Source of the DNA: a phage
Strand: one strand, 5' to 3'
Sequence record: NC_100372.1
DNA length: 64,000 nucleotides
This document shows, piece by piece, positions 14,209-63,990 of this stretch. The translations under genes were made by a program, and so were the position numbers. A model generated the notes under the pieces. That model had not been told where the DNA came from and did no database searches. It worked only from the letters and a program-made list of their open reading frames with translations. How positions within the stretch are numbered: the stretch's first letter is position 1; each line of letters opens with the position of its first letter.

Positions 14209-15297
14209 ATGGCTGTATTTAATACTGAGAACACTGCTCATAAAACTGGTGATTATCCGCTGTTTTTAGGACAGCAGATGGGGATGTACGACTCTATTAA
14301 CAAAAAGTACCCACAGCTGTTTGAACTATACAAAAAACAAAAAGAACAAGATTGGGCAGAGGACGAAGTAGATTTGTCACAGTCTATTTCGGATTTCGTA
14401 ACATGCTCAAAGTCAACTTACGATGTAATGGTGCAGACACTGATGTGGCAATGGGAGGCAGACAGTGTTGCAGCAAGATCTATCATTTGTCTGTTTTCAC
14501 CATTTATCACTAATAGTGAACTTTTCACCTTGTTGATGAAGCAGTCTGAGATCGAGGTTCTTCATGCACTAACTTACTCAGAGATTGTTAGACAATGCCT
14601 TCCTAATGCTCGTGAGATTATAGAAGAGATTCAGGAAAACCAGAACGTGCTAAGCAGGTCTGGAGTTATTGTCAAATATATGCAAGAGCTTGAGGTTATT
14701 GGTGCAAAATACCGACTGGATCCTTCCAGTGTTGAAGAAGATGTTGTACGGAAATGTATCCTTAGAGCACTTTTTGCACTTTTAGCTCTAGAGAGTATTG
14801 AGTTTATTGCAAGTTTTGCATGTACGTTCGCAGTAGCTGAGCAAGGTATTTTTGTTCAAGTTGCACAACTCGTTCAAAAAATTATGCTTGATGAGATGCT
14901 GCATTCGAAAGGTGATTTTGCTATCATCGATATCCTGCTTGATGATCCTACATGGGAGCAAAGCTTTCTTGAGATTAAGGGAGAGTTAAAAGAGATTCTT
15001 GACGAAGTACGGATCAAGGAGTACGGTTGGAGTGACTATATTTTCAGCGAAGGAAGGGCGATTATAGGGCTTAACTCACCATTACTTAAAGAATGGGTTG
15101 ACTATAACTGTTCACCGATTTATGATTACTATAACATCGACAAAGACTTTGTGCCGCCAACAAAAGACCCGTTACCGTTTATGCAGGTGTGGATGAAACC
15201 TTCACTGCAACAGACGGCTAACCAGGAAATGTCTAACACCGACTATCGCGTCAACACAACTGTTAATGACGCTGAAGAAGAAATTTGGGAGTTTTAA
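14209..15297 (+). CDS. nrdB: Ribonucleotide reductase class Ia, beta subunit
   Basis: Di-iron ligand motifs EIEVLHALTYSE and DEMLHSKG. Acidic C-terminal tail ...EEEIWEF. Confidence 0.93.
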   Translation: MAVFNTENTAHKTGDYPLFLGQQMGMYDSINKKYPQLFELYKKQKEQDWAEDEVDLSQSISDFVTCSKSTYDVMVQTLMWQWEADSVAARSIICLFSPFITNSELFTLLMKQSEIEVLHALTYSEIVRQCLPNAREIIEEIQENQNVLSRSGVIVKYMQELEVIGAKYRLDPSSVEEDVVRKCILRALFALLALESIEFIASFACTFAVAEQGIFVQVAQLVQKIMLDEMLHSKGDFAIIDILLDDPTWEQSFLEIKGELKEILDEVRIKEYGWSDYIFSEGRAIIGLNSPLLKEWVDYNCSPIYDYYNIDKDFVPPTKDPLPFMQVWMKPSLQQTANQEMSNTDYRVNTTVNDAEEEIWEF

Positions 15298-47964: not shown

Positions 47965-48423
47965 TCAACACTCTTTGTACTCCACCACGATAATATCTAT
48001 ATCAAAAGTGGCAAGGTTAATAATGTCCTCTACATGTTCCCACTTCAAACCGCCTATGCCGCACCCGATCTTAGGGATGTAGAATGGTAAAATCGACCCC
48101 TCAAATACTTCATTGACTCGCTCAAAGCCTTTCAGTATTGAGAAATATTCAGCATTAGGCCCTGGGTAGAACTGAGTATACAGATTTATTCCGTAGACAA
48201 TACCTCTCGGAGATAAGTGCTCCCAGCGGGAGAACGCGCCCAGTTTACTTAGGCAACCGTGCATAGTCATTTTATCAGCTTCCAATGCTTGAGGGAACTC
48301 ACGGGCAATCTGTTTTGCTACACCCTTACCCATTGTGTGGAAGCAGTTACAACCGTGGATCAGGTGACCATCACCGCTCTTAAAAAGGGAGATTAAATCT
48401 CCCTCTACAGTATCAATAATCAC
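47965..48423 (-). CDS. Macrodomain protein, TARG1/DarG-like (ADP-ribose hydrolase family)
   Basis: HGCNCFHTMGKGVAKQIA and IPKIGCGIGGLKWEHVEDII match the TARG1-type NC..MG.G(I/V)A and P.IGCG..GL.W motifs. GTG 48423 overlaps the upstream stop. Confidence 0.8.
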   Translation of the reverse strand: MIIDTVEGDLISLFKSGDGHLIHGCNCFHTMGKGVAKQIAREFPQALEADKMTMHGCLSKLGAFSRWEHLSPRGIVYGINLYTQFYPGPNAEYFSILKGFERVNEVFEGSILPFYIPKIGCGIGGLKWEHVEDIINLATFDIDIIVVEYKEC

Positions 48424-48838
48424 GATATTCCAGCTCCTCTTCCACAATTTCAAAAAACTCAGTCCAGCACTGTGGCATATTGGAGTTACCGAAGTGGCTT
48501 TCATAGTAAAGGTTTTTACCGCTCGGAAGATAGAAATCTGTTACCTCATAAAATCCACAATCGTCGCACTCTCCCTCTTCAAACTTGGCCTTAACCTTAA
48601 TGCCGAGGAAGGTGAAAAGTTTATGGATATCTTCGGTCTCGAACTCCCAATTAATGTTGTTTTCCGCATCGGTGTAAAACTGGATCAGTAGGCCATCATC
48701 CATTTTTCCAAAATATTCTGTGAAGTAGCTTCCTTCCCAGAAGTCTTTGTGACAAATAATATCCATGCGCTTGCCCATAATAAAGGTGTGGGCGTTTCGT
48801 GCATCGTCACGAATCAGTTTTGGCATTTCATAAATCAT
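48413..48838 (-). CDS. Hypothetical protein, translationally coupled to the macrodomain gene
   Basis: Start as in the ORF track. No motif recognised. Confidence 0.65.
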   Translation of the reverse strand: MIYEMPKLIRDDARNAHTFIMGKRMDIICHKDFWEGSYFTEYFGKMDDGLLIQFYTDAENNINWEFETEDIHKLFTFLGIKVKAKFEEGECDDCGFYEVTDFYLPSGKNLYYESHFGNSNMPQCWTEFFEIVEEELEYRDY

Positions 48839-49614: not shown

Positions 49615-49676
49615 TTTTCAGTCCTCTATATACAAAAATGCCCCACCCTTTCGGGTAGGGCTATGTTAACTAGATG

Positions 49677-50903
49677 TTAAAAAGGTATGTCATCATCAAA
49701 GGCGTACTGTGCCGGATTCTGATCCATCGGGTCGTCTTCCGCATCATCTACAGGAGGAGCGTCTACAGTGTTTTGCTGTGGGGCGGCTTCCTGTTTGGCA
49801 GCTTGAGGCTCTTGATGGTCAGTGGCTCCAGCACCGTTCTTGATCCAATCATACAACGGTTCAGCAAGATTAGTCAAGACATCTTTTGCCTCTGCAGTAA
49901 TTGCTACTGCAAAATCATCAACTTTCGTTTTCTTGTCAATACGGCGACAAGCGTTCAATACCGCATTACCAACACTGGCACCTACTTCATCTTCAGTTCG
50001 GTTAGTGGCTTGAGCGTACTCTTTCTTAAGCTCGATGGTGACCACGTGCAGTGTTTTAGCCACATCTAAAGGGCTGTCAATCTTAAACCCGCGATCCAGG
50101 ATGATCTGCAATGCATTGATACTGTGCCCTGTCTCTACACCGATGGGGTCGTAAGAGGATTTACGCTTACCACCAGAACCTTGTGTACCGTTCTCTGCTT
50201 TAGGCGGGTAGGCCTTGAAGCCGCTGATAATATTCCCGGTGTCTTTGTCAACAATAGCTGCAACACGACCACCTACCACCAGGTCTTTAAGCTGCTCATC
50301 AGAGACAACCATAGCACCTTCACCAATCTTGTGATCATTGACAGTAACCACGTTGCCAACAATCTGAGTCACATCGCCATAGATGCGTAAAACGTCCTGA
50401 TTGGCATTCTGCTGAGGTTTCTGCTTCTGGCCTTGTGATTGTGCACCTTGTTGCTGTTTTTGCTGCTGAGTCGCTGCTGGAGCCTCTCCTGCACCCAGCT
50501 TGACCATCTTAGCCAGGGAGCCTTTGTAATAGGTCTTACCGTTATGCTCGTTTGCCTTCAAAGGGATATTTACGATCCATCCTGGCGTTACAGTTTCCCA
50601 CTTGTCATCAATTTTAACAGAGACAGAGTCTTGATGACCCGGTTTAAGCAGCTTATCACCCATACTGATCCAAACTTCTTCACCACCTTGAAGCAGGTTA
50701 TCAGAGGAATCCAGTTCAGAAATCAGTAAAGAGATGGTGTGGCTGGATTCAATTTTCTTACCTTGCCACACAGTGGTTTTAATACCTGTTGTAGGATCAG
50801 CACCTTTGATAGGCTTGATGCTGACACGTTTAATCATGCCGTGAGCCAGTAAAACAGTTTCACGCGGATTCATCGGGTTAGCGAATTGTTGAATAACGCT
50901 CAT
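49677..50903 (-). CDS. SSB-like protein carrying the bacterial SSB C-terminal tip (...FDDDIPF)
   Basis: Last 7 residues FDDDIPF equal the E. coli SSB acidic tip. Q/G-rich low-complexity linker. Placed in the replication module. The OB fold was not verified. Confidence 0.65.
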   Translation of the reverse strand: MSVIQQFANPMNPRETVLLAHGMIKRVSIKPIKGADPTTGIKTTVWQGKKIESSHTISLLISELDSSDNLLQGGEEVWISMGDKLLKPGHQDSVSVKIDDKWETVTPGWIVNIPLKANEHNGKTYYKGSLAKMVKLGAGEAPAATQQQKQQQGAQSQGQKQKPQQNANQDVLRIYGDVTQIVGNVVTVNDHKIGEGAMVVSDEQLKDLVVGGRVAAIVDKDTGNIISGFKAYPPKAENGTQGSGGKRKSSYDPIGVETGHSINALQIILDRGFKIDSPLDVAKTLHVVTIELKKEYAQATNRTEDEVGASVGNAVLNACRRIDKKTKVDDFAVAITAEAKDVLTNLAEPLYDWIKNGAGATDHQEPQAAKQEAAPQQNTVDAPPVDDAEDDPMDQNPAQYAFDDDIPF

Positions 50904-54093: not shown

Positions 54094-56871
54094 TTAGTGA
54101 CAATCGCCCCAGTTACGACCGCACAAGTATTCACCTGTGATCTGGAACGGAACGCCCATCATTTTAGAAGCCTGCCAGAAGCAATGCACCACCATTTCGC
54201 CCACAGGGCTCCAGATAAGTTCAAGCTTTCCGTCATCGTTCAAGATAGGATCGTATACCGTATTTCCGTCCTTGTCAACCACTTCGTTTCCGTCCTCATT
54301 TTTGCGTGCCTTTTTGTACTTATGACCGTCGAACACATGAAGTTTAGCCTCTTGTTGGGCTTTAAATGTTTCCAGCTCTTCAATTGTGTCGAAGGTGTAT
54401 ACAGTTTTATACTTAGGGGTGTCAGGCACTTGAAGCTGATATTCGTCATGGTAATAAATAATACGACGAACACCTTCATCATACCATCCACGCTTCACCA
54501 TTTGGTGGTGCATGAGGATTCCGACCAAGTCGCACAACGATGCACCGCCATTTTGCTGATATGCATTAAGCAAAGAGTGTTTAGAGCGGGTCCAAATGGC
54601 ATGCCCGTCAAAAGAGTAGATAAATTTCTTACCTGTTGCTTCCCAGAATTTCTCCAGATCCTCTTTGCGCCCCTTAAGACCTGGGTTGGCATCCCAGAGA
54701 GCATCAATTACTCTCTGCCCCAGTTCTGGAGAGATATCCAGCATATCTGCAACTTTATCTTTTTGTGCCCCATACATAACCCCATACGTGATAGGTTTAC
54801 CATCGTTACGAGACACCTCTCTACCTGCTACTTTTGTATATGCCTCAGCATTGTTTTGGTGCGCGTCCCCGTTACTTACAACATCATAATACAGACCGTT
54901 GTCAAACTCAAAGGCACCCCAGGCCCCGATGAGCTGCTCTAAGTTGGACCCGTCAATACCGATCTCAAAGTATCCAGGAGGAACACCCCACAGACTACGC
55001 ATCTCTTTACCCATAACCACTTTAGGAGATGGTTTAGGCATGTTTGCACAAATACTATGTTTCTGTCTGGAAGTGTTTGTTAATCCAGAACTTTTAGCAG
55101 GAAGCTTGTGGTCAATCTTCAAACGTGGATGATTAAGAAGACCAGTATCTACCTTATCTTCCTTGATTGGATCAAGGACCGATCTGCGGTTTCGCAATGA
55201 TAACCACAAAACGATATCTTTAGCCATCTCTCCGTTCAATTTTTCAAGATTCGGGCACAGGTGTCCAAACGTATCTTTCAGTTGCGGAGAAGTAATAAGC
55301 GCTCTGGCTTTTCTACGTATCTTCCCAAACACTTCCTTTTTAATCCTTTCTGAGTTAGGGAAGCTTCGGAACTTGTGCACGGTTGTCTGGAACTTAGCAT
55401 CGGTTTTGTTCCAGAAGTTGATAATCAGGTCACAATACTCTGACTCTAAAAGCTCGTCCATATATGCATATACTCGTGCATCAACATCTGCATCAGGTAG
55501 AGCTTTCTTCTTGCTGTCTTTAGTTACATCCTTAGTTCTCCACATTGTCGGAAGCCAACCAGCACTGATCAGGTATCGCTTAATGTCGTCCTGGTTGCTG
55601 ATTTTCATAGGTATCTTGCAGTCCGGCATTCGCTTCTGCTGTAGATCACTTATTGCCTGATCCATTAGCTCTTTAGGTAAAGGTTGTGGTGTGGAGGTGC
55701 CCTTAATATAGCCTCTCAAGAAATCAGCCATCTTATCGGGGTCTTTGCAGCCCATCTCTTCACACCATTTTATCCCCATCTTGCTGACATCTCCTGTGGA
55801 GGTAAATGCTCGCTTAGGCGGGGCTTTGAACTCTAAAGCGCTCATGTCCACAGGATAGCCAAGCTTATCTTTTAACCATTTCCAACCATTATTGGAGATT
55901 GTCCCATCTTGGTTAAACGGCTTTTCAGGGAACTTGGGCCGCTGAGACATTGACAACTCTTTTAAAGGAAGTTGAGGTTCAACACGATCAGCGATCTCTT
56001 TCATCCACGCATCGCAACGGTCCCGTAAAGCAATAGCCCCATCTATGTCGAAATACACCCCCTGTCGAGCCTGCAGCTCCATCAGAAAGTGCTGTAACAT
56101 GCCTCGGCGTAATGCGTTCTTCCAGGTGATTTTCTTGAAGCCTTTCGGCTTCTCTTTGGCAGGATCGTACATAAAGTTCTGCATGTCAGATTTGCCGTAG
56201 AATACACCTTTTGATTCCGCTACCAACTCCTTCCAGAGCAACTCCTGGATGATAACGTCCTCGAACACACGATCCACATACTTCCACAGAGGAAGCTCAC
56301 GCCAGTCATCGATTTGAACTTTCTGGTTACCAAGGGCATAGCCCCATGCCATAAGGCCATGAGGTCCAACAGGTTGCATTTTCTTGGTAACTGGATTAAA
56401 TACTGCGTCCGGACAACCTTTTGGCAAAGGGCGGTCAGGCCACAAGATTCGACTCATTGCTAACGTATCGAACAGATTAACCTGGTGGTCGTTGATAGTC
56501 CCCATGCATTTAGGATCACGGAACATATCAAAATGAATACCGGATAATCTCTCCATCAGCATAAAGTCGTAGCTGTAGCAGTTATGACAGTTCAAAGCTG
56601 TAGGTGACCAGTCTGAGTTGCCTGTAAGCCAGCCTTCCAACTCTGAAAAATCTGCTATGCGAGCCTCAAAATCTGTATAAAGGGTCTTCTTTGCCAGAAT
56701 GAAGTTCTTAGCTTTCTCCACATCCTCTTCAGAGTAGTGTGTGCGGTCATTTAGAGGAAGGAACAGCATAAAACGGTTCTTATTCAGCTCTTTAAACAAA
56801 CCGCAGTGATAATAAAGATCTGGGTCTTCCAGCAGGCCAGAGGCCTCAAAATCGAACGACCACATGCTCAT
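54094..56871 (-). CDS. DNA polymerase, family A (with 3'-5' exonuclease domain)
   Basis: Exo I FDFEASG, Exo II NCYSYDFMLM. Pol motif A IGIDGSNLEQLI, motif B RNDGKPITYGVMYGAQ, motif C YYHDEYQLQV. Confidence 0.93.
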   Translation of the reverse strand: MSMWSFDFEASGLLEDPDLYYHCGLFKELNKNRFMLFLPLNDRTHYSEEDVEKAKNFILAKKTLYTDFEARIADFSELEGWLTGNSDWSPTALNCHNCYSYDFMLMERLSGIHFDMFRDPKCMGTINDHQVNLFDTLAMSRILWPDRPLPKGCPDAVFNPVTKKMQPVGPHGLMAWGYALGNQKVQIDDWRELPLWKYVDRVFEDVIIQELLWKELVAESKGVFYGKSDMQNFMYDPAKEKPKGFKKITWKNALRRGMLQHFLMELQARQGVYFDIDGAIALRDRCDAWMKEIADRVEPQLPLKELSMSQRPKFPEKPFNQDGTISNNGWKWLKDKLGYPVDMSALEFKAPPKRAFTSTGDVSKMGIKWCEEMGCKDPDKMADFLRGYIKGTSTPQPLPKELMDQAISDLQQKRMPDCKIPMKISNQDDIKRYLISAGWLPTMWRTKDVTKDSKKKALPDADVDARVYAYMDELLESEYCDLIINFWNKTDAKFQTTVHKFRSFPNSERIKKEVFGKIRRKARALITSPQLKDTFGHLCPNLEKLNGEMAKDIVLWLSLRNRRSVLDPIKEDKVDTGLLNHPRLKIDHKLPAKSSGLTNTSRQKHSICANMPKPSPKVVMGKEMRSLWGVPPGYFEIGIDGSNLEQLIGAWGAFEFDNGLYYDVVSNGDAHQNNAEAYTKVAGREVSRNDGKPITYGVMYGAQKDKVADMLDISPELGQRVIDALWDANPGLKGRKEDLEKFWEATGKKFIYSFDGHAIWTRSKHSLLNAYQQNGGASLCDLVGILMHHQMVKRGWYDEGVRRIIYYHDEYQLQVPDTPKYKTVYTFDTIEELETFKAQQEAKLHVFDGHKYKKARKNEDGNEVVDKDGNTVYDPILNDDGKLELIWSPVGEMVVHCFWQASKMMGVPFQITGEYLCGRNWGDCH

Positions 56872-56929: not shown

Positions 56930-59008
56930 TTAAAAAGGTGTTTCGTCGTCTTCAAAACCAGGAACGTGGTTAGAGGACGGATCATCATACTGAAGATCTT
57001 CCTGTGTGTCAACAGGGTTAACAGCAGGGGTTATAACCTTATCAGCCACAACCTTGCCCACAGGTGTTTCTACAACTGCATGCTCCTGATCCTCAAACAT
57101 AGCCTGAGGTCTCCAAACAACCTCCCCACCTTCCCCATCTGTAAACATCTGCATTTCTTTGTCCCAGTACCAGTTGCTGGCATCATGGAACTTGCCTGTG
57201 TGGGGATCCATAACTAGAGTGTCTGCAATACCTAAGGTTTTTGCTGGGCGGTTTTTAAGACCTACCAGTCGGACACGTCCACGGGAACGATCCACCATCT
57301 CCTCTGCCTCTACCCCGACAACCACCCAGCTAAGTTGCTCCAATCCGGCACTACCGCGAAGGTTCTCTTTTCGTACAGGGTACCAGAAAGGTAACGGATT
57401 TCCATCCTTATCCTTCGGAGGTACAATCTCTGTGCGCTTCAGGTGAGCAATCACCAAGATAAACACATTAAACTGCTTACAGAACGCGGCTAGTTGAGTC
57501 ATAGCCATGTCAAGTTCTTTGCGCTCATCCTTAACATTAAGCCCTGAAATCACCATAGACAAGTGATCCAGCACAATGTAACGGCAGTGATACAGGCACA
57601 CCATTTGTTTAAGCTTAGTGATCAGCTCATCTACAGGAATGGAGCCGAAATGCTTGAACACTTTGATTTTTCCGGCCTTGGCCCAAGATTGATGAATCTC
57701 AGCGTGCTCCTGATCGGTCAGGAACTGACTGGGGTCTTCAACAAACTCTTTAACATCAAACCCCAGCTGGTTAGCGTACAGAGAGTTGATTGCTTCCTCA
57801 GGATCCTCTTCAAGGTGAATCAGGCACAGGCGATCATCCTCTTCATAATCATCAGCTTTAGGGCATGTTGGATCCATCAAGTATCTTGCAATGCAATGTT
57901 CCAGCTTCTTGGCTACAGTTGTTTTACCACCGCCAGACGGGCCTGTCAGCATCATCAAGGTGCCTTTGTGGAGTCCTTTCAGCATCTTCTGCAGTTTAGG
58001 GAACTCTGCACTAATATCCACGCCATTGGAAGTCTTCTTACGAAGAGATTCAATGGAGAAGTCTTCTAAATCAGATACAGCATCAGGCACATATTTGACT
58101 GGGTGACGGAACATGTTGACAATATCTTCCAGCTTTTTAGCCTTCAGCATGTCACGAATATCTTTTACACCATCAGGGTCGTTTACCTCACCTGGGTATT
58201 CCACGTGGTAAACGTTGTCAGCCATCAAAAATGCTGCGATATTATGCGTAGCTTCAACACCTTTGATAACGTGTTTTTGCTTCTCTACCTCGTTAGCTGC
58301 ATCGTTGTCCATTGCAAGGACTACTGTTCCGTAGCTACGGATAAATTTCTCATTGTTCGCAAAAGTGTCTACGGCGTTTGCACACCCGCAGTTAATTCCG
58401 ACAAAAGGCAGGCATGGTTTTCCTGCCAGATCACCGCCGTTGATAACTGCATCAATCCCATCCTGGACTTCTTTAGCCCACTGCTTCACCTTCGCCGGGG
58501 CTTTAGCATTGGTGAGAATTCCTTTTACTTGTACCTGATATGCAGCCTGCCACGCTGCAATAACATCTCCTTCCCCCTCACAAACGTTAATCTGCTTGCG
58601 GTTGTTGGAGGATGCACACAGCTTTTGACCAAACATCTGGGAGTTGGCCTTTACTATGCCGACAACCGAGAAATGGCCCCTTTGCTCTTTAGGGATTGTC
58701 CAGTCACGCTTTTTAAAGCCAGATAGATTACCGTAGCGGTCATAATACGGAAAGTAGGTGGCAGTAACAGTTACGCCATCCTCTTGGGATAGCGATGATC
58801 GTACACCAAAATATTGTGCAGCCATCAGTCCAATATTTTGTTGTGGAACAGGGACAATTTTAGTGTTTTCTAAAACAGTCTCCACAGTTTCAACTTCTTT
58901 TTCATCACGATAGTCTCGTTTCACACTTCCCCCACTTTTATACTTAGTTGCTTTCGGGTTTGGCTCACCGAAACGGTTGTATGCAGATGCCATGAATTTA
59001 CTGCCCAT
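56930..59008 (-). CDS. Bifunctional primase-helicase (T7 gp4-like: TOPRIM + DnaB/RecA-type helicase)
   Basis: TOPRIM CEGEGDVIAA and AMDNDAANE. Walker A LTGPSGGGKTT, Walker B-like YIVLDHLS. Acidic C-terminal tail ...GFEDDETPF. ATG 59008, 8 nt after AGGAG. Confidence 0.9.
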   Translation of the reverse strand: MGSKFMASAYNRFGEPNPKATKYKSGGSVKRDYRDEKEVETVETVLENTKIVPVPQQNIGLMAAQYFGVRSSLSQEDGVTVTATYFPYYDRYGNLSGFKKRDWTIPKEQRGHFSVVGIVKANSQMFGQKLCASSNNRKQINVCEGEGDVIAAWQAAYQVQVKGILTNAKAPAKVKQWAKEVQDGIDAVINGGDLAGKPCLPFVGINCGCANAVDTFANNEKFIRSYGTVVLAMDNDAANEVEKQKHVIKGVEATHNIAAFLMADNVYHVEYPGEVNDPDGVKDIRDMLKAKKLEDIVNMFRHPVKYVPDAVSDLEDFSIESLRKKTSNGVDISAEFPKLQKMLKGLHKGTLMMLTGPSGGGKTTVAKKLEHCIARYLMDPTCPKADDYEEDDRLCLIHLEEDPEEAINSLYANQLGFDVKEFVEDPSQFLTDQEHAEIHQSWAKAGKIKVFKHFGSIPVDELITKLKQMVCLYHCRYIVLDHLSMVISGLNVKDERKELDMAMTQLAAFCKQFNVFILVIAHLKRTEIVPPKDKDGNPLPFWYPVRKENLRGSAGLEQLSWVVVGVEAEEMVDRSRGRVRLVGLKNRPAKTLGIADTLVMDPHTGKFHDASNWYWDKEMQMFTDGEGGEVVWRPQAMFEDQEHAVVETPVGKVVADKVITPAVNPVDTQEDLQYDDPSSNHVPGFEDDETPF

Positions 59009-61418: not shown

Positions 61419-62785
61419 ACGTCCCCCTTTTCTGCTCTAGTTTCAAAATCTTTCCTGACTTTCTCGTCTAAGCCAGGGAAAGTTGTATTATAAAACTCTA
61501 CGACTCTCGGGTCAACAATAATATCCACCTCTCTTAATGGACGCAACAAGTTTATTCCTTGTATCGTCTTAACCCGACTCAAGGCAACATACGTCATTCC
61601 GGGAGAGAAAGCTCCGTTCTTTCCGAGGTCTAGGTTGTAACAATCTAACGTAAGTCCTTGACTTTTGTGCGATGTTACTGCGTACCCAGATTTCAAAGGA
61701 AGTTGCTCATAAGACCCGATCACAACCCTCTCTATGAACTTCTCCATCTTCCTTTCGGCAATATTGTACCTCTGGGAAGGTTTGTACTCGTTATTCTCCC
61801 ACAATCTCGGCTCAATTTCAACCTGTGTCCCGTCTTCCAGCTCAACCACCACAGACTTGGTCTTGAATTTTACCACTGTGGCGCGTGTCCCGTTGACATA
61901 GTACGGAACTTTGTGTGTCGGGTCAACATCGTTTGAGGTTATCATAACCTTCATCCCTATCTTCAGCCTCATTTCCTGCTCCACAGGCAGTGTGGAGGGG
62001 AACTTACCTTTCATTTTACCAATGTAGGTCTTCTCTGGGGCCTTGATGGCATCATAGAAACGTCTGTTCACCTCCTCTGCTTGCTTATTGGTGGCACAGA
62101 TGGTCAAGGCATCTGTTGGGACACCACCATGATAGCAACGAGTGTTAAGCTCTGCTACAACCTCTTTTATGCGACGACCTTCACGAACACAGTTCAACAT
62201 TGTGGCGAAGCGAACAGATTCCTGACGGAACTGGTCTACTAATGCTATATTGTGAAGATTAAGATCCTCCCAAGATTTTGTATAGCAACACAGGTCTGTG
62301 TGGTAGAAGTTGAAGTAGGCTTCTTTCTCCATAGAAGAGACAACTGGGGGTGCTTGGTAGAAATCTCCAAACAATAACACCTGAATGCCTCCGAAAGGTT
62401 TGTCATTTTTCCGAAGAAAGCGGAGTTTTCTATCCATCTCTATGAACTTGTCAGCACGGATCATAGAGATTTCATCGATAATTAGGATGGTAAATGCCTT
62501 GCTTTTCAGAGGCTTTGCTGTTTTTGCCCTTATTGCTGTCCAGTCTGACTCCATGCTCACACCTGCGGCAAGATCGAAAGTTCGGTGCGCTGTTGCTCCA
62601 TTAACGTTTAAAGCGGCTACCCCTGTCGGGGCAACCGTTATGCAAGAGTCTCCATACATGGACTGGATCATGTTGATAAGATATGTCTTCCCGGTTCCAC
62701 CAGGTCCACTTACGAAGACATTCTCACCGCTCATGATTGCAACAAGGGCAGCATCTGTGCCTACATCGTACTGCCCTTTTTCCAT
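61415..62785 (-). CDS. SF1B helicase, Pif1/RecD/Dda-like
   Basis: Walker A VSGPGGTGKTYL, Walker B LIIDEISMI, GDFYQAPPV, TSHKSQGLTLD, YVALSRV. Confidence 0.9.
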   Translation of the reverse strand: MEKGQYDVGTDAALVAIMSGENVFVSGPGGTGKTYLINMIQSMYGDSCITVAPTGVAALNVNGATAHRTFDLAAGVSMESDWTAIRAKTAKPLKSKAFTILIIDEISMIRADKFIEMDRKLRFLRKNDKPFGGIQVLLFGDFYQAPPVVSSMEKEAYFNFYHTDLCCYTKSWEDLNLHNIALVDQFRQESVRFATMLNCVREGRRIKEVVAELNTRCYHGGVPTDALTICATNKQAEEVNRRFYDAIKAPEKTYIGKMKGKFPSTLPVEQEMRLKIGMKVMITSNDVDPTHKVPYYVNGTRATVVKFKTKSVVVELEDGTQVEIEPRLWENNEYKPSQRYNIAERKMEKFIERVVIGSYEQLPLKSGYAVTSHKSQGLTLDCYNLDLGKNGAFSPGMTYVALSRVKTIQGINLLRPLREVDIIVDPRVVEFYNTTFPGLDEKVRKDFETRAEKGDV

Positions 62786-63990
62786 TACGCCTCCTCGTAG
62801 ATAATGTCGATAGTATTACCGTCGCGGTCAACCACGTACTCAATTGGGTCGCCATCTTTGCGCGATTCTGGAGCTACTACGATTTCGTAGCGGCATGCAC
62901 GGCACTTGGCGCTGTTGTGTTGGTAAGGTACACTAACTACATCGGCAGGGTCAACCATAACCGTCATCACAGTTCCGTAGCTCTTTGCATACTCTTTGCT
63001 GGCACAGTGCAGGCCATAAGAGCATGCAGCTTCCGGATCATCCTCTACAAAGTTACGAGGCATGGATACAAAAGCCCCCTGGTATTGTGGGACTTTACCA
63101 CTGTGCCAATCCACCCACTTGTCGCCGTTAAACTGAACCCCTTTGTAGCAAATGATTCGACCATCTTCTGCAATCTGAATGTCGTTTGCCTGCATAAAAT
63201 CGTAGAGCATGTTTACAGATTTTGCAGAAGGATTGCGTAGCAGGCGAACGAGGAATTTCACATAGCGGTCATCCAGTGTTCCGTCTGCATAATCTTTCTC
63301 AATTTTCTTTGCAATGGTGGATCGCATCTCTACACCGTAGTAGTAGAGCTTACCGTCTTTCATGATCAGGTTGTCTGCAAGTGTGGTGAACTCATTCTTG
63401 CGTTCCAGCCAGACAAGGATTTCACCAATTGCCTCGTCATATTCCTGAACAGAGATATGGTCGAAAACTTTCTGGTAAACTTCCTCACTTTCACTGCGGC
63501 GAATTTCAAAAATACCTTCGTTGCAGGTGATCTGGAGGAGTTCCCCGCAAATAACCACCAAAGGCTCGATGCTTCGGGTCTGTTGCTGAGACACACTGCT
63601 CACCACCTCCAGCACCGGGTCTTTTACTTCTACTAAAGGTTCTTCTGACTTGATTGCTACCCCAGTGAACCCTACACCGTGAACAACACACAGTGGATAT
63701 ACCACACCCCAACGTTTAACGGAACCTTCTCCTAAATCTAAGATCATGGCGTACTTACCGTTATCTTCCAGCCCATATCGAAATAAACGGGCCTCTTCAC
63801 GGGTTTCAAAATCCTCACGGGTGTAGCAGACGCTGTCACGGTCAGGATCGAACAACTCTGGGGCACCTACTGCCAGTGTCCAGGTTGTGTTACCTTTCTC
63901 AATAGCGCATGTGAAACCCTTCTTCTCAAGCTCTGCACGGCGGTCACGTGCTTCTTTACGAGTTTTGAAATGTTCGTAGATGAAAATCAT
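62785..63990 (-). CDS. Hypothetical protein (401 aa) with duplicated N-terminal F.TR(K/E)EAR..R..LE..G motif
   Basis: GGAGACC SD at the window edge. HFKTRKEARDRRAELEKKG and DFETREEARLFRYGLEDNG repeats. No family assigned. Confidence 0.7.
   Translation of the reverse strand: MIFIYEHFKTRKEARDRRAELEKKGFTCAIEKGNTTWTLAVGAPELFDPDRDSVCYTREDFETREEARLFRYGLEDNGKYAMILDLGEGSVKRWGVVYPLCVVHGVGFTGVAIKSEEPLVEVKDPVLEVVSSVSQQQTRSIEPLVVICGELLQITCNEGIFEIRRSESEEVYQKVFDHISVQEYDEAIGEILVWLERKNEFTTLADNLIMKDGKLYYYGVEMRSTIAKKIEKDYADGTLDDRYVKFLVRLLRNPSAKSVNMLYDFMQANDIQIAEDGRIICYKGVQFNGDKWVDWHSGKVPQYQGAFVSMPRNFVEDDPEAACSYGLHCASKEYAKSYGTVMTVMVDPADVVSVPYQHNSAKCRACRYEIVVAPESRKDGDPIEYVVDRDGNTIDIIYEEA

What the first reader, a model, noticed from the sequence alone, without database searches (positions are those of the whole stretch)
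49677..50903. 408-aa replication-module protein ends in the exact host SSB tip (FDDDIPF), and the primase-helicase ends in a similar acidic ...EDDETPF tail
The last residues of 49677..50903 reproduce the E. coli SSB C-terminal peptide (DFDDDIPF) that recruits the SSB interactome. They are preceded by Q/G-rich low-complexity linkers, like SSB's own linker. At 408 aa the protein is more than twice the host SSB size.

The gp4-like primase-helicase (56930..59008) ends GFEDDETPF, also acidic with a terminal aromatic residue. In T7, the acidic Phe-terminated tails of gp2.5 and gp4 compete for the same basic patch on the polymerase. The parallel suggests a tail-switching replisome here, plus possible hijacking of, or competition with, host SSB partners.
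Basis: partly seen in the sequence, partly recalled or inferred. Interest (0 to 1): 0.5.

Follow-up and report, generated by a model that had tools for sequence, protein, structure and literature searches.

The report
Phage SSB with host-type tail
An unannotated 408-residue protein of an rV5-like E. coli phage is most likely the phage's own single-stranded-DNA-binding protein, from a sequence family with no named function, and it ends in the same docking peptide that the host SSB uses to recruit its partner proteins.

Summary
The protein from 49677..50903 ends ...AFDDDIPF*, and the gp4-like primase-helicase (56930..59008) ends ...GFEDDETPF*. Neither tail is a chance match. Pro-Phe is the most conserved feature of the 408-aa family (about 250 clusters), and 114 of 120 primase-helicase homologues also end in PF.

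- an N-terminal OB fold resembling SSB/RPA/PriB
- an optional IF1-like mini-OB
- a conserved four-helix domain
- a disordered acidic tail

No Pfam, NCBIfam or PDB sequence match exists, PHROG 4477 is "unknown function", and no other SSB was detected in the genome. The best reading is the phage's replicative SSB, a new structural variant carrying a canonical bacterial SSB tip.

The T7-like "shared pocket" idea is plausible but untested. The two tails differ consistently three residues from the end: I/L/V in the SSB, E/T/S in the helicase.

Unexpectedly, 52 of 115 Vequintavirus genomes carry a homing-endonuclease cassette inserted exactly after the Phe codon. It caps the tip with 15 residues (APVGLQYGKSRIHAL). 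The same cap follows the PF tip of canonical phage SSBs and of primase-helicases elsewhere, and it appears to be under purifying selection.

The parts
49677..50903 (-). Gene for the 408-aa SSB-like protein (rV5 gp214 family, PHROG 4477), stop codon included
   Evidence: ORF list and translation. PHROG 4477 E=1.4e-172, labelled 'unknown function'. 99.5% identical to phage YN3, and 277 phage records hold homologues.
50490..50903 (-). Residues 1-138: predicted OB fold (OB1), the putative ssDNA-binding domain
50394..50489 (-). Residues 139-170: Q-rich disordered linker
   Evidence: pLDDT 25-34. Sequence GAGEAPAATQQQKQQQGAQSQGQKQKPQQNANQ.
50208..50393 (-). Residues 171-232: optional mini-OB (b1-b2-b3-short helix-b4-b5), IF1/S1-like
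   Evidence: Secondary-structure order in the AF2 model. Foldseek IF1 hits with target TM 0.58-0.61 over 67-71 columns. Present in only 60 of 163 family members and absent from the 275-315 aa forms.
49839..50147 (-). Residues 253-355: four-helix domain, the most conserved folded part; function unknown (oligomerisation or partner binding are guesses)
49701..49838 (-). Residues 356-401: disordered acidic linker
   Evidence: pLDDT below 50. Residues 356-408 have net charge -12.
49680..49700 (-). Residues 402-408, FDDDIPF: canonical bacterial SSB C-terminal tip
   Evidence: Translation. Identical to the end of E. coli SSB. P and F 95% conserved across 163 members.
49640..49661 (-). Intrinsic terminator hairpin directly after the stop codon. 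This is the 'naive' allele, with no 15-aa extension and no homing endonuclease.
   Evidence: The alignment with rV5 shows the 643-nt cassette is absent here.
56930..59008 (-). gp4-like primase-helicase (692 aa) ending GFEDDETPF
   Evidence: Translation. Pfam DnaB_C/AAA_25 and PHROG 239 'DNA primase/helicase', E=2.4e-158. 114 of 120 homologues end acidic-x-PF.
56933..56950 (-). Last six residues DDETPF of the primase-helicase
   Evidence: Family logo: -1 F and -2 P in 100%, -3 E/T/S, -4 to -8 mostly D/E.
54094..56871 (-). Family A DNA polymerase (925 aa), the candidate receptor for the tails by analogy with T7 gp5
   Evidence: PHROG 8888/17 'DNA polymerase' and a sub-threshold Pfam DNA_pol_A hit. 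The receptor role is inference only.

Best explanation
The 408-aa protein is the phage's own replicative single-stranded-DNA-binding protein. It belongs to a sequence family with no detectable homology to bacterial SSB, T7 gp2.5 or T4 gp32, but it has the same functional layout.

Proposed mechanism:
1. A basic OB domain, with a second mini-OB in this subfamily, coats ssDNA at the fork.
2. The conserved four-helix domain mediates self-association or partner contact.
3. A long disordered acidic linker ends in the canonical bacterial SSB tip DDDIPF, which acts as a tether for proteins that must work on SSB-coated DNA.
4. The whole hexapeptide, including the hydrophobic residue three from the end, is kept across the family. 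T7 gp2.5, whose partners are phage proteins, keeps only 'acidic plus Phe'. So the receptors most likely include the host's SSB-interacting proteins, or phage proteins using the same type of pocket. The phage SSB would thus replace host SSB on phage DNA without losing the host toolkit.
5. The primase-helicase carries a related but distinct acidic ...D-x-PF tail. By analogy with T7 gp4, this tail most likely docks on the phage family A polymerase to couple helicase and polymerase.

Shown here: the sequences, the family-wide conservation of both tails, the predicted folds, the conserved gene order, and the absence of another detectable SSB.

Inferred: ssDNA binding, every protein-protein contact, and the role of the helical domain.
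For: Tails read directly from the sequence.

Family-wide tip conservation. The profile search found 259 representative clusters.

Primase-helicase tail conservation down to 42% identity.

Fold evidence:
- AF2 domain models, pLDDT 80-95 in the folded parts, reproduced twice.
- Foldseek's best hits are RPA, DUF2815, D. radiodurans SSB, phage p2 SSB and IF1, none statistically significant.
- BFVD gives weak SSB/DUF2815 hits.

Electrostatics: OB1 pI 9.1, tail net charge -12.

No other SSB: tblastn with E. coli SSB, T7 gp2.5 and T4 gp32 over the window plus the rest of a 99.5%-identical genome finds only this protein's tail. The rV5 genome paper names ligase, polymerase and helicases but no SSB (PMC3606486).

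Gene order primase-helicase, then polymerase, then this gene is kept in a 29%-identical relative.

Precedents: T7 tails binding the polymerase front basic patch (PMC12339929); HK620 phage SSB needing its last six residues for its phage partner (PMC5928155); the architecture of SSB-tip pockets (PMC10164576).
Against: - No sequence homology to any known SSB: hhalign probability below 1%, and no Pfam, NCBIfam or PDB sequence match outside the tail.
- ssDNA binding is untested.
- In 52 of 115 Vequintavirus genomes, and in whole related genera such as phi92-like phages, the tip is followed by 15 more residues. Canonical SSB-tip pockets bind the free alpha-carboxylate (PMC10164576), so the tip may be dispensable, may work as an internal motif, or the cap may be removed.
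- The consistent difference three residues from the end between the SSB and helicase tails weakens the 'same pocket' part of the model.
Confidence: 0.7

Rival explanations
1. Decoy. The protein's main job is not to coat ssDNA but to present many copies of the host SSB tip. These would soak up or redirect host SSB-interacting enzymes (nucleases, helicases, restart proteins) away from host DNA or away from phage DNA. The OB-like domains would serve some other binding role.
For: Exact host-type hexapeptide kept across the family. No sequence homology to known SSBs. Structural similarity is only moderate.
Against: A T7-type replisome (primase-helicase plus PolA) needs an SSB, and none other was found. 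The basic OB domain, long acidic linker and tip form the full SSB layout. Gene order with the replication genes is conserved.
Confidence: 0.1
2. Replisome adaptor or recombination mediator. An OB plus helical-bundle protein would load or couple the primase-helicase, or promote annealing on ssDNA, as T4 gp59, lambda Orf or RecO do. Its SSB-like tail would compete with or imitate SSB rather than the protein being the bulk SSB.
For: The four-helix domain is the best-conserved folded part, and no SSB family is known to carry it. RecO and RuvA appear among the OB matches. The primase-helicase family lacks the Zn ribbon that T7 gp4 uses, so an accessory factor is conceivable.
Against: No match to any mediator or loader family. 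Under this reading the phage would have no SSB of its own.
Confidence: 0.12
3. The tip is a passenger. It would be maintained, and spread between unrelated genes, by homing-endonuclease-driven gene conversion that uses the tip-coding DNA as its landing site, rather than by selection for a protein function.
For: The same endonuclease cassette sits exactly after the PF codon in this family, in canonical ssb genes and in primase-helicase genes. N-terminal types and tail types reassort within the family.
Against: Most family members, this window included, have the tip without any endonuclease. PF is the most conserved position over about 250 clusters, far more than a selfish element present in a minority could maintain. 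SSB tips are essential wherever they have been tested (PMC10164576, PMC5928155).
Confidence: 0.05

Closest known systems
Bacterial-type SSB (E. coli SSB, Pfam PF00436, and its phage and plasmid homologues)
   Same: OB-fold DNA-binding domain (predicted here), a disordered low-complexity linker, and an identical C-terminal tip FDDDIPF. Distant family members match 11 residues, PPMDFDDDIPF.
   Different: No detectable sequence homology outside the tail. More than twice the size. An extra mini-OB in a subset and a conserved four-helix domain. Oligomeric state unknown.
T7 gp2.5 (and the DUF2815 phage SSB family)
   Same: The SSB of a replisome built from a gp4-type primase-helicase and a family A polymerase. 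Acidic disordered tail ending in Phe, which in T7 docks on the polymerase front basic patch and is essential (PMC12339929).
   Different: The T7 tail is acidic and ends in Phe without the IPF motif (from my memory of the sequence). Here the full host hexapeptide is kept. Fold similarity is weak only (4klk E=0.066) and hhalign probability is below 1%.
T7 gp4 primase-helicase C-terminal tail (...DTDF)
   Same: The window's 692-aa protein belongs to the gp4-like family (PHROG 239, DnaB_C). Its homologues end in a conserved acidic tail with a terminal Phe.
   Different: The ending is -PF, not -DF. No N-terminal Cys4 zinc ribbon anywhere in this subfamily. Binding to the polymerase is untested.
HK620 SSB / Sak4 pair
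   Same: A divergent phage SSB whose last six residues (NDYPPF, similar to DDDIPF) are needed to engage a phage-encoded partner on ssDNA (PMC5928155).
   Different: HK620 SSB is a distant homologue of bacterial SSB and works in recombination. The present family is a different fold variant sitting in a replication module.
Free-standing phage homing endonucleases (for example T4 seg/mob genes, HNH and EndoVII-like)
   Same: A presence/absence polymorphism between near-identical genomes, inserted precisely next to a highly conserved coding sequence.
   Different: Here the cassette replaces the stop codon and adds a conserved 15-aa peptide to the target protein. The same peptide persists in endonuclease-free genes.

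Membership tests
Bacterial-type SSB (Pfam PF00436 / TIGR00621) | Match to the family's sequence model over the OB domain | tested here: not met
   No Pfam hit for the query or for 34 homologues. NCBIfam hits cover only the last ~37-70 model positions (the tail) of two homologues, far below the cut-offs. hhalign against a small SSB alignment gives probability below 1%.
Bacterial-type SSB (Pfam PF00436 / TIGR00621) | OB-fold DNA-binding domain | tested here: met
Bacterial-type SSB (Pfam PF00436 / TIGR00621) | Disordered linker followed by an acidic C-terminal tip D-D-D-[IL]-P-F | tested here: met
Bacterial-type SSB (Pfam PF00436 / TIGR00621) | High-affinity, sequence-independent ssDNA binding; homotetramer | not testable with these tools
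   Needs purified protein (EMSA or fluorescence titration, SEC-MALS).
T7 gp2.5-like SSB (DUF2815) | Sequence or fold match to gp2.5/DUF2815 | tested here: inconclusive
   No Pfam hit. Foldseek 4klk E=0.066 and a BFVD DUF2815 hit at E=0.011.
T7 gp2.5-like SSB (DUF2815) | Acidic C-terminal tail with an essential terminal Phe | tested here: met
   The sequence feature is present and conserved. Essentiality was not tested.
T7 gp4-like primase-helicase | DnaB/RecA-type hexameric helicase domain | tested here: met
   Pfam DnaB_C E=3.3e-13 and AAA_25 E=1.6e-15; PHROG 239 E=2.4e-158.
T7 gp4-like primase-helicase | TOPRIM primase core | tested here: inconclusive
   EGEGD and DNDxA motifs are visible in the translation, and a distant relative hits Pfam Toprim_2. 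No Pfam Toprim hit for the window protein itself.
T7 gp4-like primase-helicase | N-terminal Cys4 zinc-binding domain | tested here: not met
   No CxxC pair in the first 130 residues of the window protein's homologue or of 13 further homologues.
T7 gp4-like primase-helicase | Acidic C-terminal tail ending in Phe that binds the polymerase | tested here: inconclusive
   The tail is present and conserved. Binding was not tested.
Free-standing homing endonuclease cassette (side finding, not in this window) | Presence/absence between near-identical genomes with precise boundaries next to a conserved target | tested here: met
   52 of 115 records carry it. The boundaries are the Phe codon and the stop/terminator. 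The endonucleases belong to PHROG 1035 and 2340. Cleavage of the naive allele was not tested.

The most novel reading that the evidence does not exclude
The DNA encoding the PF tip would be a shared landing pad for a family of homing endonucleases. The 15-residue peptide that travels with them (AP[IV]GLQY..[IL][HY]x[LIF]) would be a selected, transferable C-terminal module, not just a scar.

By turning the free SSB tip into an internal motif on SSBs and primase-helicases of many unrelated phages, the peptide would act as a natural switch. It would either disconnect these proteins from host SSB partners or retarget them to another partner.

Separately, the rV5-type replisome would use a two-tier tail code: a host-type IPF tip on the SSB and a polar-x-PF tip on the helicase.
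Probability: 0.2. Interest if true: 0.65.

Novelty: new variant of a known kind. Interest (0 to 1): 0.42.

Why it matters
- It assigns a function to a protein labelled 'hypothetical' in most of the several hundred phage records that hold it, spanning rV5-, phi92-, PVP-SE1- and CR3-like therapeutic and model phages, BASEL collection members included. That fills the missing-SSB gap in their replication module.
- It defines an SSB architecture (OB, optional mini-OB, four-helix domain, host-type tip) that sequence-based annotation cannot see.
- It offers a tractable system to ask whether a lytic phage with its own replisome still depends on the host's SSB partner proteins.
- The naturally capped alleles are a ready-made test of how strictly an SSB tip needs its free carboxylate.

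Tried and rejected
- Plus-strand reading of the given coordinates: only stops.
- Pfam, NCBIfam and PDB sequence or profile searches: nothing outside the tail.
- Local hhalign of each domain against a small canonical SSB alignment and T7 gp2.5: probability below 1%.
- Foldseek against PDB: no hit with E <= 0.001, only OB folds near E 0.03-0.1.
- BFVD: only uncharacterised relatives and weak SSB/DUF2815 hits.
- The afdb50 library was not available.
- Search for a second SSB in the genome: none.
- Recent capture of the tail from host ssb: rejected. The tip is conserved through the whole family, and similarity to E. coli SSB beyond it is only 36% over 56 aligned positions.
- Does the 15-aa cap dock on the protein? 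AF2 leaves it disordered, pLDDT 30-36.
- Is the cap always next to an endonuclease? No: mEp235, V039C, KpS8, KpS11 and phi92 have it without one.
- Literature searches for a described ssb-tip homing endonuclease or a characterised rV5 SSB found nothing.
- Clamp-binding or PIP-box readings of the cap were considered by eye and do not fit the consensus.
- A resemblance of the cap's basic-then-hydrophobic C-terminus to ClpX degrons is only an impression from memory.

Full report
**Observation.** The coordinates are right, but the genes are on the minus strand; the plus-strand frames are full of stops. The minus-strand ORF 49677..50903 encodes 408 aa and ends ...DDPMDQNPAQYAFDDDIPF, followed by TAA. 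A 9-bp GC-rich hairpin plus T-run terminator follows immediately. The ORF 56930..59008 encodes a 692-aa protein ending ...HVPGFEDDETPF. E. coli SSB ends ...NEPPMDFDDDIPF (PDB 1eqq sequence), so seven terminal residues are identical. Among 477 ORFs of at least 40 aa in the window, four end acidic plus aromatic. They are these two, an unknown 141-aa protein, and NrdB, whose acidic aromatic tail is a well-known type, from my knowledge of ribonucleotide reductases.

**Where the window comes from.** The protein is 95-99.5% identical to proteins of 114 phage records of the genus Vequintavirus: rV5, FV3, FFH2, V18 and several BASEL phages. It is 27-40% identical to proteins of Mydovirus, Seunavirus, Certrevirus, phi92-like and Phapecoctavirus phages. 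In the BASEL phage JohannBauhin the gene lies downstream of 'DNA primase/helicase' and 'DNA polymerase' on the same strand and is annotated 'hypothetical protein'. The rV5 genome paper lists ligase, polymerase, two helicases and nucleases but no SSB (PMC3606486).

**What the protein is.**
- No Pfam, NCBIfam or PDB sequence match exists outside the last ~40 residues.
- PHROGs places it in family 4477, 'unknown function'.
- A few GenBank records call relatives '(putative) single-stranded DNA-binding protein'. Because the NCBIfam SSB models touch only the tail, those labels probably rest on the tail alone.

AlphaFold2 was run on a 30-sequence alignment and repeated on a second alignment. Both give the same domain structure:

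| Residues | Prediction | pLDDT |
|---|---|---|
| 1-138 | all-beta domain (OB1) | 80-92 |
| 139-170 | disordered, Q-rich | 25-34 |
| 171-232 | b1-b2-b3-short helix-b4-b5 (mini-OB) | about 80 |
| 233-252 | short, largely disordered linker | 237-250 below 50 |
| 253-355 | four long helices | 86-95 |
| 356-402 | disordered acidic segment | below 50 |
| 403-408 | tip DDDIPF | not confidently modelled |

Further points consistent with an SSB:
- OB1 is basic (pI 9.1), and residues 356-408 carry a net charge of -12.
- Across 163 diverse members, the conserved positions in OB1 include three aromatic ones (W78, W102, Y126), K97 and H55. These are the kinds of residues that contact ssDNA in other SSBs; that role is an inference.
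- Local profile-profile comparison with canonical SSB and with T7 gp2.5 finds nothing, probability below 1%. The resemblance is therefore at fold and architecture level only.
- tblastn with E. coli SSB, T7 gp2.5 and T4 gp32 over the window plus the remaining 73 kb of the 99.5%-identical phage YN3 finds no other SSB. The only hit is this protein's own tail.

**The family and its tip.** A profile search of 1.84 billion representative proteins finds 259 clusters. Most are 260-300 aa, made of OB1, the helical domain and the tail. Only 60 of 163 aligned members contain the middle mini-OB. Of 206 sequences, 151 end [ILVM]PF, 7 end in another xPF, 11 end acidic plus aromatic, 6 end PF plus 1-2 residues, 16 end PF plus a 15-residue extension, and 15 are mostly truncated fragments. 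Pro and Phe are 95% conserved, among the most conserved positions in the whole protein. Distant members even read PPMDFDDDIPF, 11 residues identical to E. coli SSB. N-terminal types and tail types reassort between close relatives, for example P0033/P0034 against P0040/P0041. The tail therefore behaves as an exchangeable module.

**The primase-helicase.** It has a DnaB-type helicase domain and belongs to PHROG 239, 'DNA primase/helicase'. Of 120 homologues down to 42% identity, 114 end in an acidic run plus PF: DDETPF, DNDTPF, DGSPF, DEDCPF, and in Vibrio-phage relatives DEPF. The two tail families differ systematically. Three residues from the end, the SSB-like family has I/L/V in 99 of 106 unique tips, while the helicase family has E/T/S/C in 28 of 31 and a hydrophobic residue in 1 of 31. 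In a 29%-identical relative of the SSB-like protein the gene order is kept: primase-helicase, polymerase, a gp5.9-like gene, then the SSB-like gene. There the helicase ends ...DPNKDF.

**Mechanism.** I conclude, with confidence about 0.7, that this is the phage's replicative SSB. In T7, the acidic Phe-terminated tails of gp2.5 and gp4 dock on the polymerase front basic patch (PMC12339929). In HK620, a divergent phage SSB needs its last six residues to engage its phage partner (PMC5928155). Host SSB partners bind the tip through a hydrophobic pocket for the Phe side chain, a basic lip for the alpha-carboxylate and a basic ridge for the Asp residues (PMC10164576).

Strict retention of the complete host hexapeptide, including the hydrophobic residue three from the end, contrasts with the looser 'acidic plus PF' of the helicase tail and with T7 gp2.5. 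This suggests that the SSB tip is held to the same pocket type as host SSB. It would let the phage SSB replace host SSB on phage DNA while still recruiting host SSB-interacting enzymes. The helicase tail would serve a phage-internal contact, most likely with the polymerase. All contacts are inferred, and none could be tested here.

**Unexpected complication.** In rV5 itself the ORF does not stop after Phe. It continues ...DFCDDIPF-APVGLQYGKSRIHAL* and overlaps the start of an 'endonuclease VII' gene.
- Aligning the window with rV5 shows a precise 643-nt insertion between the Phe codon and the stop/terminator. It consists of the 45-nt extension plus the endonuclease ORF.
- 52 of 115 Vequintavirus records carry the insertion; the window does not.
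- The codons for GLQY contain the endonuclease's Shine-Dalgarno sequence and its ATG.
- The same arrangement follows the PF codon of a canonical ssb (phage morffagbaw), of a phi92-like SSB-like gene (Pseudomonas phage PsgM04F) and of a primase-helicase (Salmonella phage KE23). The endonucleases belong to PHROG 1035 or 2340 and share an N-terminal CxxC...CxxC module.
- The 15-residue cap also occurs with no endonuclease behind it, followed directly by a terminator or an unrelated gene. Examples are the canonical SSBs of mEp235, V039C and mEp013, the primase-helicase of KpS8, and the SSB-like proteins of KpS11 and phi92.
- tblastn finds the tip plus cap in 233 phage records.

In ten cap sequences, pN/pS is 0.36 in the SSB frame but 0.93 in the overlapping endonuclease frame. 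phi92 and PsgM04F differ by four synonymous changes and no non-synonymous change. This suggests selection on the peptide itself. The sample is tiny (45 nt) and the pairs are not independent. AF2 leaves the cap disordered. All 16 capped family members retain the [DE]x[ILV]PF motif.

A cap that removes the free carboxylate should block canonical tip binding (PMC10164576). So one of three things must hold: the tip works as an internal motif for a phage partner, the cap is removed, or tip function is dispensable in these phages. This is the main evidence against a simple host-hijack model, and it is unexplained.

**Comparison with known families.** The protein works like an SSB, and its tail is that of bacterial SSB. 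It fails the sequence-model test for PF00436/TIGR00621 and for DUF2815, so I do not file it as a member of either. It is a distinct family (PHROG 4477) with an SSB-type layout plus a conserved four-helix domain. The primase-helicase is a member of the gp4-like family by its helicase domain and PHROG assignment, but this subfamily lacks the N-terminal zinc ribbon.

**Verdict.**
- The SSB interpretation is supported by predicted structure and genomic context.
- The T7-like tail-switching and host-hijack ideas remain plausible but untested, and are qualified by the difference three residues from the end and by the natural caps.
- Novelty: a new structural variant of a known kind.
- Interest is moderate. 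It is raised somewhat by the capped alleles and the endonuclease that targets the tip-coding DNA.

Noticed in passing
Absent from the window (naive allele at 49640-49700); rV5 locus L003 2525-3167: A homing-endonuclease cassette (45-nt ORF extension plus a 207-aa EndoVII-like gene) is inserted exactly between the Phe codon and the stop of the SSB-like gene in 52 of 115 Vequintavirus genomes. It turns ...DDIPF* into ...DDIPFAPVGLQYGKSRIHAL*.
   Followed up: partly
L004 2066-2572 (mEp235 ssb), L010 577-1125 (V039C ssb), L014 1111-1575 (mEp013 ssb), L005 1003-3066 (KpS8 primase-helicase), L002 6001-7218, L013 1125-2072 (phi92 gp156): The same 15-aa cap (AP[IV]GLQY..[IL][HY]x[LIF]) follows the PF tip of canonical phage SSBs, gp4-like primase-helicases and SSB-like proteins that have no endonuclease next to them. 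pN/pS is 0.36 in the SSB frame against 0.93 in the endonuclease frame. The cap's function is unknown.
   Followed up: partly
L003 2544-3167, L008 1544-1984, L009 1553-2005, L011 1544-2038: The endonucleases at this site belong to two PHROGs (1035 EndoVII-like, 2340 HNH). They share an N-terminal CFKCG..KPL.EFYKH..MADGHLNKCKEC module, possibly the DNA-recognition part that targets the tip-coding sequence.
   Followed up: partly
window 56930-59008 (minus strand): The gp4-like primase-helicase and 13 homologues checked have no CxxC pair in the first 130 residues, so they lack the zinc-binding domain that T7 gp4 needs for priming. A more distant relative on L012 does start with a CPSC motif.
   Followed up: partly
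Homologues P0066-P0068 and P0107-P0154 of the primase-helicase: Many homologues are 975-1025 aa instead of about 670-690 aa, with the query covered in two parts. This suggests a ~300-aa insertion, possibly an intein or a mobile element.
   Followed up: no
window 14209-15297 (+): The ribonucleotide reductase small subunit (PHROG 86) ends ...NDAEEEIWEF. This is the other acidic, aromatic-terminated tail in the window. It is the known type of tail that binds the large subunit (from my knowledge) and is unrelated to the SSB tip.
   Followed up: yes
window 47965-48504 (-) and 48413-48838 (-): A Macro-domain protein (Pfam Macro; PHROG 335, labelled 'phosphatase') lies about 1.2 kb downstream of the SSB-like gene. 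It overlaps a 141-aa protein of unknown function (PHROG 8157) that ends in an acidic, aromatic tail ...VEEELEYRDY.
   Followed up: no
Family members P0033/P0034/P0040/P0041 (alignment A1): N-terminal sequence types and C-terminal tail types of the SSB-like protein reassort between close relatives. This indicates recombination inside the gene at the linker.
   Followed up: no
L012 9837-10001: In a distant relative, the gene immediately upstream of the SSB-like gene hits Pfam Phage_T7_Gp5_9, the T7 RecBCD inhibitor family.
   Followed up: no
Phage records MG0656xx: About 20 records named 'Campylobacter phage' are 96-98% identical to E. coli Vequintavirus genomes in this region. The host labels look doubtful.
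   Followed up: no
window 62785-63990 (-): A 401-aa protein next to the Dda-like helicase matches RIIB-family PHROGs, labelled 'lysis inhibitor'.
   Followed up: no
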